Shown: in pieces, positions 58,836 through 60,000 of the stretch
How the letters are laid out: each line of letters begins with the position of its first letter
Numbering within the stretch: the stretch's first letter is position 1
NCBI RefSeq assembly: GCF_006345805.1
Contig: NC_042997.1
Span: forward strand, 124,000,001-124,064,000
Length of the DNA stretch: 64,000 nt
Reading direction: 5' to 3'
Source: Octopus sinensis
Taxonomy: Eukaryota
Program-made: the position numbers

Positions 58836-59955
58836 CGAGAAAGAAGCAACAAGAATGGATAGGTTTTTAGTACGATCGTTTCATACAAGGACAGGTTTTA
58901 TTAAAAGTTGCAAAGATTACAGCATATAAACGAGTCCCGTACTCATCAGCTAAAATACATGTAAGTTCTCTAGACATCCTAGTGTTTGAGGCTATACTCA
59001 TGAAGTAATGTAGATAATTAAACAGATTTCTAAAGTTCATTAAAGTTCTTTAAAGATGATGTACAGTCTTATCACAGAATTTTAAAAAGTTTTGATAGCA
59101 TCACAGAGAAGGTGACCTAATCCATATGAATTTCCATAGATATTATGAGGGATTATATACTCACAGAAGACAAATTTATCCATTGTTAATTACAACGAGG
59201 TGGGTCTCAATTCCTGCTTATTAGCATTACAGAGAGGGTGAATTAATCCTTTGTATAGATGCACAGATTCCAATGGTGTAGATGTAAATTTCCAGAGAAA
59301 TGTAGATGAATTTCATATTCACAGGCGATAAATCGCGATTTATCGCCTGTGAATATGAAATTCATCTACATTTCTCTGGAAATTTACATCTACACCATTG
59401 GAATCTGTGCATCTATACAAAGGATTAATTCACCCTCTCTGTAATGCTAATAAGCAGGAATTGAGACCCACCTCGTTGTAATTAACAATGGATAAATTTG
59501 TCTTCTGTGAGTATATAATCCCTCATAATATCTATGGAAATTCATATGGATTAGGTCAGCTTCTCTGTGATGCTATCAAAACTTTTTTTAAATTCTGTGA
59601 TAAGACTGTACATCATCTTTAAAGAACTTTAATGAACTTTAGAAATCTGTTTAATTATCTACATTACTTCATGAGTATAGCCTCAAACACTAGGATGTCT
59701 AGAGAACTTACATGTATTTTAGCTGATGAGTACGGGACTCGTTTATATGCTGTAATCTTTGCAACTTTTAATAAAACCTGTCCTTGTATGAAACGATCGT
59801 ACTAAAAACCTATACATTCTTGTTGCTTCTTTCTCGCTTATAATCACCCCACATTACTGTATTGTTAAATCAGTATAGTTTTTTTTTGGTGCATCTAAGT
59901 TAGGTACCATATTCAAGTAAATTCTTTTAAATTAACTTGAATCTTTATTGCTCTT

Positions 59956-60000
<45 letters not shown>

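What the first reader, a model, noticed from the sequence alone, without database searches (positions are those of the whole stretch)
58836..59958. 1-kb perfect fold-back element carrying a hammerhead ribozyme on each strand
Seen: two 500-bp arms joined with zero spacer and ~99% identical. Each strand ends in a canonical-core type I HHR (CUGAUGA, GAAA, 6-bp stem I, palindromic stem III ACGAUCGU, GUA site). The right side continues ~120 bp past the mirror, and the unit sits between (TA)n tracts. There is no ORF. Known: PLEs carry such HHRs in their pseudo-LTRs and form inverted termini. Inference: this is a young non-autonomous PLE/retrozyme-like unit made by self-primed fold-back synthesis. 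Transcription in either direction gives the same 500-bp dsRNA rod, in which the ribozyme is sequestered by its own antisense. That would be a possible self-silencing switch, ADAR substrate or endo-siRNA source.
Basis: partly seen in the sequence, partly recalled or inferred. Interest (0 to 1): 0.88.

Follow-up and report, generated by a model that had tools for sequence, protein, structure and literature searches.

The report
Inverted twin retroelement relic with hammerheads
A 1.1-kb piece of non-coding mobile DNA sits in a TA microsatellite as two mirror-image copies, each ending in a hammerhead ribozyme motif; this matches the known way Penelope-like retroelements insert, so it is a tidy but ordinary example.

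Summary
Arms 58836-59335 and 59336-59836 mirror each other with no spacer, differing by 3 substitutions and one 1-nt indel. Each strand carries one type I hammerhead motif near the outer end of its sense arm (+ 59717-59807, - 58865-58955). The core is complete, helix I has 6 bp and helix III is the palindrome ACGAUCGU. The motif is degenerate: Rfam gives 22 bits against a cut-off of 34, the helix II closing pair is G-U where the Rfam consensus has G-C, helix II is 60 nt, and the hammerhead fold is not the predicted minimum. Chance is unlikely: 0 of 2000 shuffled windows matched it. The unit lies between (TA)n tracts, has a 121-nt one-sided extension and no long ORF. Inverted 5'-truncated copies, a one-sided tail, a (TA)n target and a terminal hammerhead are published hallmarks of Penelope-like element insertions. 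cDNA snap-back is documented for R2 target-primed reverse transcription. I read it as a dead, non-autonomous PLE-lineage insertion. It is not a retrozyme, because each strand has only one ribozyme. No parent copy, reads or RNA data could be checked. The dsRNA-switch, ADAR and siRNA ideas remain untested. It is a new member of a known kind, of low to moderate interest.

The parts
58811..58834 (.). Left (TA)n tract abutting the unit; presumed half of the microsatellite target
   Evidence: Perfect (TA)>=8 tract; TRF AT array 58731-58835
58836..59335 (-). Left arm: the copy whose sense (hammerhead) strand is the - strand. Its 5'-truncated or 5' end is at the centre and its 3' end faces left. It lacks the 121-nt extension
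58865..58955 (-). Type I hammerhead motif of the left arm. CUGAUGA 58949-58943, GAAA 58882-58879, U16.1 58872, A17 58871; predicted cut between 58871 and 58870
   Evidence: RF00163, 22 bits, model 1-45
59324..59347 (.). Centre of symmetry at 59335|59336, with zero spacer
   Evidence: 0 nt between arms; sequence printed
59336..59836 (+). Right arm: the copy whose sense strand is the + strand
59717..59807 (+). Type I hammerhead motif of the right arm. Helix I 59717-59722/59802-59807, CUGAUGA 59723-59729, 60-nt helix II 59730-59789 (closing pair G-U), GAAA 59790-59793, helix III/loop ACGAUCGU 59793-59800, A17 59801; predicted cut after 59801
   Evidence: RF00163, 22 bits, E 0.0021 in 131 nt
59837..59957 (+). 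One-sided 3' extension ('tail') of the right copy, absent from the left copy, ending exactly at the right (TA)n. 59843-59957 is predicted to be structured as RNA
   Evidence: mirror ends; (TA)n starts at 59958; MFE -22.0, z -2.87 against 300 shuffles
59958..59987 (.). Right (TA)n tract abutting the unit

Best explanation
The unit 58836-59957 is a dead, protein-less insertion of the Penelope-like-element lineage: a fragment of a pseudo-LTR or of a non-autonomous derivative. It landed in a (TA)n microsatellite by target-primed reverse transcription.

One copy, the right arm plus its 121-nt 3' extension, was reverse-transcribed from the 3' end of the element RNA. Synthesis then turned back at the point that is now 59335|59336. 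There are two possible routes. The nascent cDNA may have snapped back and copied itself. Alternatively a second cDNA, primed on the other DNA strand, may have been joined end to end. The result is two head-to-head copies with their 3' ends, and hence their hammerheads, facing outward.

The hammerhead is a relic carried along from the source element. In this locus it has no partner copy on the same strand and a weakened helix II closing pair. In a read-through transcript it would be buried in a roughly 500-bp duplex, so it most likely does nothing here.

Shown: the anatomy, the motif and the (TA)n flanks. Inferred: the PLE parentage, the order of events, and the inactivity.
For: Anatomy:
- The mirror is exact, has zero spacer, and stops at 58836/59836 rather than running into the flanks.
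- One type I hammerhead lies on each strand, 35 nt from the outer end of the mirror.
- 0 of 2000 shuffled windows reach the observed motif quality.
- Both ends of the unit abut (TA)n. Only 4.4% of window positions lie in or within 5 nt of a (TA)>=8 tract, so both ends doing so by chance is roughly 0.002 if independent. This also places the 121-nt extension inside the inserted unit.
- There is no frame above 60 codons, and GC is 32%.

Literature:
- Craig et al. 2021 (passages) describe 5' truncation, an inverted 5'-truncated copy, a tail often at one end only, (TA)n as a preferred target of Naiads with a microsatellite bias hypothesised for Neptune PLEs, and HHRs typically within pLTRs.
- Cervera & de la Pena 2014 report pairs of PLE hammerheads 100-700 bp apart on opposite strands in Schistosoma, and most motifs as solitary, probably truncated PLE remnants.
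- PMC11167929 shows that a purified PLE protein cleaves and extends both DNA strands, prefers AT-rich DNA, and starts reverse transcription at two internal sites whose interval is the 'tail'.
- PMC11371274 reports snap-back 5' junctions, with antisense sequence fused to the upstream target, among R2-mediated insertions.
- The 2026 preprint relates animal non-LTR retrozymes to PLE pLTRs, with consensus lengths of 51-972 bp.
Against: - No RT or GIY-YIG ORF, no direct pLTR and no second copy of the arm exists in the 64 kb. PLE parentage therefore rests on the ribozyme type and insertion architecture, not on homology.
- The one-sided extension is 121 nt, three to four times the published 30-40 bp tail.
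- In the R2 data, snap-back is drawn as priming on an internal cDNA position. That would normally leave a loop, whereas this centre has no spacer.
- Long perfect palindromes are unstable in cells (my own knowledge). The arms have nevertheless accumulated 3 substitutions and an indel while the inner 252 nt of each arm stayed perfect. This fits uneasily and leaves room for sequencing or assembly error.
- Naiads, the clade for which the (TA)n preference is stated most clearly, lack canonical hammerheads.
- The Rfam score is below the curated cut-off.
Confidence: 0.6

Rival explanations
1. Inverted duplication at the DNA level after insertion. A single hammerhead-bearing copy sat next to the (TA)n and was later duplicated in inverted orientation. 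The cause would be a replication template switch or hairpin-mediated break repair, with the return junction in the TA tract.
For: The spacer is zero and the inner 252 nt of each arm are perfect. The left junction lies in a TA run, and the right arm's outer end reads TTATAA, which offers microhomology. The extension is present on one side only.
Against: It needs two precise switches that happen to restore a unit framed by (TA)n on both sides. Inverted copies are already an expected product of PLE insertion. The window shows no other sign of local rearrangement.
Confidence: 0.13
2. Assembly or sequencing artefact. A fold-back or chimeric read, or a mis-join across TA repeats, created a palindrome that the chromosome does not contain.
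For: Craig et al. note that complex PLE structures often cause problems in shotgun assemblies. One of the four arm differences is a homopolymer-length difference and the adjacent base also differs, which is typical of read error. The unit is framed by low-complexity TA tracts, where mis-joins happen.
Against: The mirror is bounded at 58836/59836 and the flanks are different sequences, whereas a simple fold-back read would mirror to its end. The left flank is a dispersed repeat and the right flank is unique in the window. The palindrome lies 4 kb inside the window end. Two clean substitutions separate the arms.
Confidence: 0.12
3. Foldback- or MITE-type DNA transposon. Its long terminal inverted repeats would meet in the middle, and it would carry a captured hammerhead-bearing fragment.
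For: The long inverted arms, absence of an ORF and AT-rich target superficially fit.
Against: No target-site duplication can be read from the TA flanks. The 121-nt one-sided extension breaks the symmetry expected of TIR ends. The hammerhead lies at the position and in the orientation expected for the 3' end of a retro-copy. No other copy is in the window, which holds several copies of other repeats.
Confidence: 0.05
4. A retained, functional hairpin-RNA locus. Transcription would yield a roughly 500-bp dsRNA that feeds siRNA or ADAR pathways, with the hammerhead acting as a gated 3'-end trimmer.
For: The predicted hairpin is -893 kcal/mol with the ribozyme core paired. The inner arms are perfect. 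The extension folds better than shuffles, z -2.87.
Against: There are no expression, small-RNA or editing data and no conservation data. The locus is single in the window. The ribozyme looks degenerate. Any young inverted duplication would give the same hairpin prediction without being selected for it.
Confidence: 0.05

Closest known systems
Complex inverted insertions of Penelope-like elements (Penelope/Poseidon, Neptune, Naiad clades)
   Same: Two copies in inverted orientation with their 5' sides joined, an extension at one end only, insertion into (TA)n, and a type I hammerhead near the terminal repeat (passages of PMC8557442; PMC4209133; PMC11167929).
   Different: No RT/GIY-YIG ORF and no direct pLTR. 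Both copies end at exactly the same internal point with no spacer. The extension is 121 nt rather than 30-40 bp. Homology to any PLE could not be tested.
Metazoan type I hammerhead ribozymes (Rfam RF00163; Schistosoma, newt and PLE-associated motifs)
   Same: Full conserved core, 6-bp helix I, a 2-bp helix III with a 4-nt palindromic loop (ACGAUCGU against the Rfam consensus ACGcgCGU), and GUA at the cleavage site. Helix III is too short for a stable monomer, so the dimer mode is expected.
   Different: The helix II closing pair is G-U where the consensus has G-C. Helix II is 60 nt against 4-8 bp. The score is 22 bits against a cut-off of 34. The predicted minimum-energy fold is a competitor (-14.3 against -9.0 kcal/mol).
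Animal non-LTR retrozymes
   Same: Non-coding, low GC, a unit length within the reported 51-972 bp, a type I hammerhead, and a proposed PLE-pLTR origin. Solitary monomers are common.
   Different: There are no tandem direct copies and only one hammerhead per strand, so no excision or circular RNA is possible.
cDNA snap-back junctions in R2 target-primed reverse transcription
   Same: Antisense element sequence is fused to the upstream target, with the sense copy downstream. That is the topology seen here.
   Different: It was observed for engineered R2 templates in human cells, not for PLEs, and priming was drawn at internal cDNA positions rather than at a zero-spacer turn.

Membership tests
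Hammerhead ribozyme, type I (RF00163) | Conserved core C3 U4 G5 A6 N7 G8 A9, G12 A13 A14, A15.1-U16.1, H17 | tested here: met
   All positions are present on both strands
Hammerhead ribozyme, type I (RF00163) | Three helices around the core, with helix I open-ended | tested here: met
   Helix I has 6 bp. Helix II has 9 pairs with one bulge at its base. Helix III has 2 bp plus a 4-nt loop
Hammerhead ribozyme, type I (RF00163) | Score at or above Rfam's gathering cut-off (34 bits) | tested here: not met
   22 bits on each arm. Nothing at gathering score in the whole window. No hammerhead row when 1501 nt were searched at E<=10
Hammerhead ribozyme, type I (RF00163) | G10.1-C11.1 closing pair of helix II, called highly conserved in PMC4209133 | tested here: not met
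   G-U in both arms (alignment)
Hammerhead ribozyme, type I (RF00163) | Active fold is thermodynamically accessible | tested here: inconclusive
   Monomer: hammerhead fold -9.0 against MFE -14.3, about 1e-4 of the ensemble. Double hammerhead: -32.9 against dimer MFE -37.3. Tertiary contacts and protein factors are not modelled
Hammerhead ribozyme, type I (RF00163) | Self-cleavage after H17 | not testable with these tools
   Needs in vitro transcription
Penelope-like element (autonomous) | Single ORF with a telomerase-like RT and a GIY-YIG endonuclease | tested here: not met
   The longest frame in the unit is 60 codons
Penelope-like element (insertion architecture, including non-autonomous derivatives) | Direct pseudo-LTR from a partial tandem copy | tested here: not met
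   No direct repeat of the arm or extension
Penelope-like element (insertion architecture, including non-autonomous derivatives) | Inverted 5'-truncated copy adjoining the 5' side | tested here: met
   Head-to-head arms. Whether the join is a truncation or the true 5' end is unknown
Penelope-like element (insertion architecture, including non-autonomous derivatives) | Short extension (tail) at one end only | tested here: inconclusive
   A one-sided extension is present at 59837-59957, but it is 121 nt against the published 30-40 bp
Penelope-like element (insertion architecture, including non-autonomous derivatives) | Insertion into a microsatellite or AT-rich target | tested here: met
   (TA)n abuts both ends
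Penelope-like element (insertion architecture, including non-autonomous derivatives) | Sequence homology of the arm to the pLTR of an RT-encoding PLE in the same genome | not testable with these tools
   No eukaryotic genome collection was available. No copy in the window. 0 hits in the prokaryotic genome-contig collection
Non-LTR retrozyme | Two or more direct (tandem) units, each with a hammerhead on the same strand | tested here: not met
   One hammerhead per strand and no tandem unit
Non-LTR retrozyme | Circular RNA intermediates | not testable with these tools
   Needs RNA data
Foldback/MITE DNA transposon | Terminal inverted repeats flanked by a target-site duplication, in many copies | tested here: inconclusive
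   The arms are inverted, but the outer ends are asymmetric (121-nt extension). The TA flanks hide any duplication. The unit is single in the window

The most novel reading that the evidence does not exclude
The locus is a real, transcribed hairpin-RNA gene born from a retroelement. A 500-bp perfect duplex gates a hammerhead, and the ribozyme cuts only while the 3' arm is still unpaired. That cut would set the 3' end of a dsRNA that then feeds siRNA or ADAR pathways. This would be a ribozyme-in-hairpin timing device not described in the papers I searched (listings).
Probability: 0.04. Interest if true: 0.6.

Novelty: new member of a known kind. Interest (0 to 1): 0.25.

Why it matters
As it stands, this is a clean worked example of the 'complex inverted' insertions that make Penelope-like elements hard to assemble and annotate. 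It shows all four published hallmarks in 1.1 kb: an inverted copy, a one-sided extension, a (TA)n target and a terminal hammerhead.

A zero-spacer join is a useful natural data point for how PLE reverse transcription ends, whether by snap-back or by two-strand priming with an end-to-end jump. That question is still open in the PLE papers read here.

It is also a reminder that curated Rfam thresholds and speed filters miss hammerheads with long helix II inserts. This motif appeared only when 131 nt were searched.

It would matter more if the locus proved to be transcribed and processed, but nothing here argues for that.

Tried and rejected
**Rfam searches.** The whole-window search at gathering score gave 0 hits. 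The 1.5-kb E-value search gave 51 rows, all sub-threshold miRNA/snoRNA look-alikes on the palindrome centre and on TA/TG repeats. I regard these as hairpin or low-complexity artefacts.

**Other copies or a parent in the window.** blastn of arm plus extension against the window found only itself and its mirror above noise. Looser hammerhead descriptors found no further motif.

**A PLE in the window.** ORF 47487-48002 looked to me, from memory, like a PLE Zn-finger/GIY-YIG endonuclease.
- Pfam gave no family at E<=0.01.
- At E<=1, Pfam found nothing relevant in the 24 plus-strand frames I picked from the 72 frames listed for 42-50 kb.
- The homologue search among longer proteins gave 0 hits.
- The near-length search gave 2 hits, the better at 43% identity and named as a receptor-transporting protein.
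- The Atlas gave GIY-YIG-bearing clusters at 0.92 with low recognition.
- The identification remains a lead only.

**Naming the organism from a LINE-like ORF.** There were 0 hits. My recollection that the flanking SINE-like repeat resembles an octopus SINE is unverified. ARAGORN found no tRNA-like gene in 57800-60500.

**Tandem or sub-repeat structure of the arm.** TRF found only two 10-nt, 2.5-copy arrays per unit. Local self-alignments scored 32 and 31, against a maximum of 30 in shuffles. That is too weak to use.

**Helix II.** Its predicted stability is not unusual, z -0.97.

**External scans.** Two exact-match scans of the prokaryotic genome collection with 23- and 25-nt stretches of the hammerhead gave 0 hits. 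This was expected and is uninformative for a eukaryotic repeat. A full-text search for the hammerhead's 14-mer found 0 papers.

**Not checked.** No eukaryotic genomes, reads or RNA data were available. Paper supplements are closed. The supplementary hammerhead alignments of PMC4209133, which include invertebrate families, could bear on whether this helix II form is known.

Full report
**1. What is there**

The stretch 58836-59836 is a near-perfect palindrome centred at 59335|59336, with no spacer.
- The repeat finder gives inner arms of 252 nt at 100% complementarity with 0 nt between them. It gives outer arms of 264 nt at 98%.
- blastn of the left arm against the reverse complement of the right gives 501/507 identities with one gap.
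- A global alignment shows that, within 58836-59335 versus 59336-59836, the arms differ at 58858/59814, 59083/59588 and 59112/59559. There is also a 1-nt length difference in an A/T run at 59589. The two outermost aligned positions mismatch.
- The mirror stops there. To the left comes a TA array (58731-58835 by TRF; a perfect tract at 58811-58834). To the right come 121 further bases (59837-59957) with no counterpart on the left, then a perfect (TA)15 at 59958-59987.
- The unit has no open frame longer than 60 codons, and its GC is 32.4% against 34.7% for the window.
- The arm has no other copy in the 64-kb window.

**2. The hammerheads**

A descriptor written from the standard hammerhead definition finds exactly two hits in the window on both strands. 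The descriptor requires CUGAUGA, helix II, GAAA, helix III, U-H, and helix I closing on the core. The two hits are the mirror copies.

On the + strand:
- helix I is 59717-59722 with 59802-59807 (6 bp, five of them A-U);
- CUGAUGA is 59723-59729;
- helix II is 59730-59789;
- GAAA is 59790-59793;
- helix III with its loop is ACGAUCGU at 59793-59800;
- A17 is 59801.

A looser descriptor allows any N7, the U3-A8 covariant, a bulge after A9 and a minimal palindromic helix III. It adds nothing, and shuffles give 0.18 hits per window (n=300).

At the observed helix lengths, 0 of 2000 block-shuffled windows contain a motif. At generic lengths, 106 of 2000 do. The strict thresholds were chosen after seeing the motif, so the true significance lies between these two figures.

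Rfam is less generous:
- nothing at gathering score in the whole window;
- no hammerhead among the 51 rows at E<=10 when 1501 nt were searched;
- Hammerhead_1 (RF00163) appears only when 131 nt are searched, at 22 bits against a cut-off of 34, with E 0.0021 for that small search and the full model aligned. The result is identical on both arms.

The alignment shows why. Where the consensus has G-C, the helix II closing pair is G-U. A 54-nt insertion also sits where the model expects 8 nt. Helix III, by contrast, is almost the Rfam consensus (ACGAUCGU against ACGcgCGU).

**3. Would it cleave?**

Helix III has only two pairs closed by a 4-nt palindromic loop. Cervera & de la Pena 2014 describe this as the usual metazoan type I design. 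It is unstable as a monomer and active as a dimer when a second copy is nearby (PMC4209133, text parts 1-2 of 4 read).

Each strand here has only one sense copy, so no dimer can form in cis. ViennaRNA predictions are as follows.
- For the 91-nt motif, the competing fold is -14.3 kcal/mol and the hammerhead fold is -9.0. That puts about 1e-4 of the ensemble in the hammerhead fold.
- For two copies in trans, the double hammerhead is -32.9 against a dimer minimum of -37.3.
- For the whole unit, the predicted structure is one hairpin of -893.0 kcal/mol (+) or -886.5 (-), with CUGAUGA fully paired to its antisense.

These are secondary-structure estimates only. The same paper reports low in vitro activity for PLE hammerheads and calls the G10.1-C11.1 pair highly conserved. 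The 2026 preprint saw cleavage in 1 of 9 Xenopus retrozyme dimers. I therefore rate this motif as a real hammerhead descendant, probably weak or inactive in this setting.

**4. What the whole thing is**

The published description of Penelope-like element insertions fits feature by feature.
- Craig et al. 2021 (PMC8557442; passages only) describe several features. [quoted passage not shown] They also describe a 30-40-bp tail often at one end only, and hammerheads typically within pLTRs. They report a strong microsatellite bias, with (TA)n for Naiads and a Zn-finger linker hypothesised to mediate it in Neptune.
- Cervera & de la Pena noted pairs of PLE hammerheads 100-700 bp apart on opposite strands in Schistosoma.
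- In this window only 4.4% of positions lie in or within 5 nt of a (TA)>=8 tract. A unit whose two ends both abut such tracts is therefore unlikely by chance. This also argues that the 121-nt extension belongs to the insertion.

The orientation is the one expected for retro-copies. Each arm's hammerhead lies toward the outside, where the element's 3' end should be, and the join is at the 5' sides.

**5. How it was probably made**

Two routes fit.

(a) Snap-back. A cDNA primed at a nick in the bottom strand copies the element RNA from its 3' end, including the extension. At the 59336-equivalent it turns back and copies itself. The returning strand is joined to the other side of the target before reaching the extension. 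Filling in the top strand then gives a palindrome. Such snap-back 5' junctions, with antisense sequence fused to the upstream target, were seen among R2-protein-mediated insertions in human cells (PMC11371274, passages).

(b) Two-strand priming. A purified PLE protein cleaves and extends both DNA strands. It prefers AT-rich DNA and starts reverse transcription at two internal sites whose interval is the genomic tail (PMC11167929, passages and section 3 part 1 of 2). Two cDNAs that both ran to the same RNA 5' end, joined by an end-to-end jump, would also give a zero-spacer palindrome with one tailed and one tail-less end. Under this route the centre would be the true 5' end of a roughly 0.5-0.6-kb non-autonomous RNA. 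That 5' end is not the hammerhead cleavage product, because the sequence after A17 differs from the sequence at the centre.

The window cannot decide between (a) and (b). Only other copies of the family can.

**6. Why not file it as a retrozyme or a PLE proper**

A retrozyme needs at least two ribozymes on the same strand to excise a unit. Here there is one per strand and no direct repeat. An autonomous PLE needs an RT/GIY-YIG ORF, and there is none.

What remains is 'works like, and looks like the product of, a PLE-type insertion'. The preprint by Li et al. argues that animal non-LTR retrozymes are PLE pLTR derivatives of 51-972 bp and that solitary monomers are common (abstract, section 11 part 1 and passages). 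The two labels therefore shade into each other.

**7. Rivals**

- A later DNA-level inverted duplication is possible, with TA microhomology at the left junction. It needs more coincidences.
- An assembly artefact cannot be excluded without reads. Craig et al. warn about such structures in assemblies. One arm difference is a homopolymer length change. Long perfect palindromes are unstable in cells (my own knowledge). Against an artefact, the mirror is bounded, the two flanks are unrelated to each other, and clean substitutions separate the arms.
- A foldback-type DNA transposon fits poorly, given the asymmetric extension and the retro-copy orientation of the ribozyme.
- A selected hairpin-RNA function has nothing for or against it beyond the fold prediction.

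**8. Limits**

- No eukaryotic genome, read set or RNA data could be queried.
- The two exact scans of prokaryotic genomes were negative, as expected.
- That the flanking dispersed repeat resembles an octopus SINE is my recollection only. A 2026 paper lists Penelope-like elements among active octopus repeats (PMC13282606, passages), but I have not shown that this window is from an octopus.

**9. Verdict**

It is a new member of a known kind, interest 0.25.

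Noticed in passing
window 47487-48002 (+): A 171-codon open frame with a C-x4-C-x2-C motif followed by a GIY-YIG-like stretch. From memory it resembles the endonuclease end of a Neptune/Naiad-type PLE. Pfam finds nothing. The Atlas points to GIY-YIG-bearing eukaryotic clusters at 0.92. 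There are two weak homologues, the better at 43% identity. No RT frame was found among the 24 plus-strand frames scanned, and no hammerhead lies nearby. It shares no sequence with the palindrome.
   Followed up: partly
window 58249-58690, with copies at 36890-37331, 44002-44366, 45267-45720, 55515-56031 and fragments at 2652-2719 and 6306-6441: The DNA just left of the unit is a dispersed SINE-like repeat of about 440 bp. It is 82-90% identical between copies and has a TA/TG microsatellite in its middle. ARAGORN sees no tRNA-like head.
   Followed up: partly
window 59843-59957 (+): The one-sided extension is predicted to fold into three hairpins at -22.0 kcal/mol, z -2.87 against 300 shuffles. 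It could be the 3' module that a reverse transcriptase recognises. The PLE studied in vitro needs RNA downstream of its hammerhead.
   Followed up: no
window 59704-59722 with 59802-59825: Helix I of the hammerhead may continue beyond its 6 bp. A 5-nt bulge on the 3' strand is followed by 5-6 more pairs (cofold -5.3 kcal/mol). An AATAAA lies inside helix II at 59770, which may well be chance in AT-rich DNA.
   Followed up: no
window 59789-59790 and mirror: The non-consensus U at 11.1 is followed by G12. The consensus C there would be part of a CpG, so the change is the kind expected from methyl-CpG deamination. CpG in the arm is 8 observed against 15.5 expected. This is inference only.
   Followed up: no
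window 1105-1629 (-) and 17147-17533 (-): Fragments of mariner-type transposase. The first matches Pfam Transposase_1 at 3.9e-24. The second gives HTH-domain matches.
   Followed up: partly
whole window: The window is very rich in simple repeats. There are 76 perfect (TA)>=8 tracts, and 7.3% of bases lie in short tandem repeats. Long coding-looking frames are mostly translated microsatellites.
   Followed up: partly
window 59277-59394, 58745-58837, 59980-60061: Sub-threshold Rfam matches to miRNA and snoRNA families (mir-297, mir-2763, mir-466, SNORD90 and others). They fall on the palindrome centre and on TA/TG repeats and appear on both strands alike. I take them for hairpin or low-complexity artefacts.
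   Followed up: yes
window 53962-54450 (-): A 162-codon frame that looks to me, from memory, like the C-terminal tail of a LINE reverse transcriptase ORF. There is no Pfam family and no homologue among near-length proteins.
   Followed up: partly
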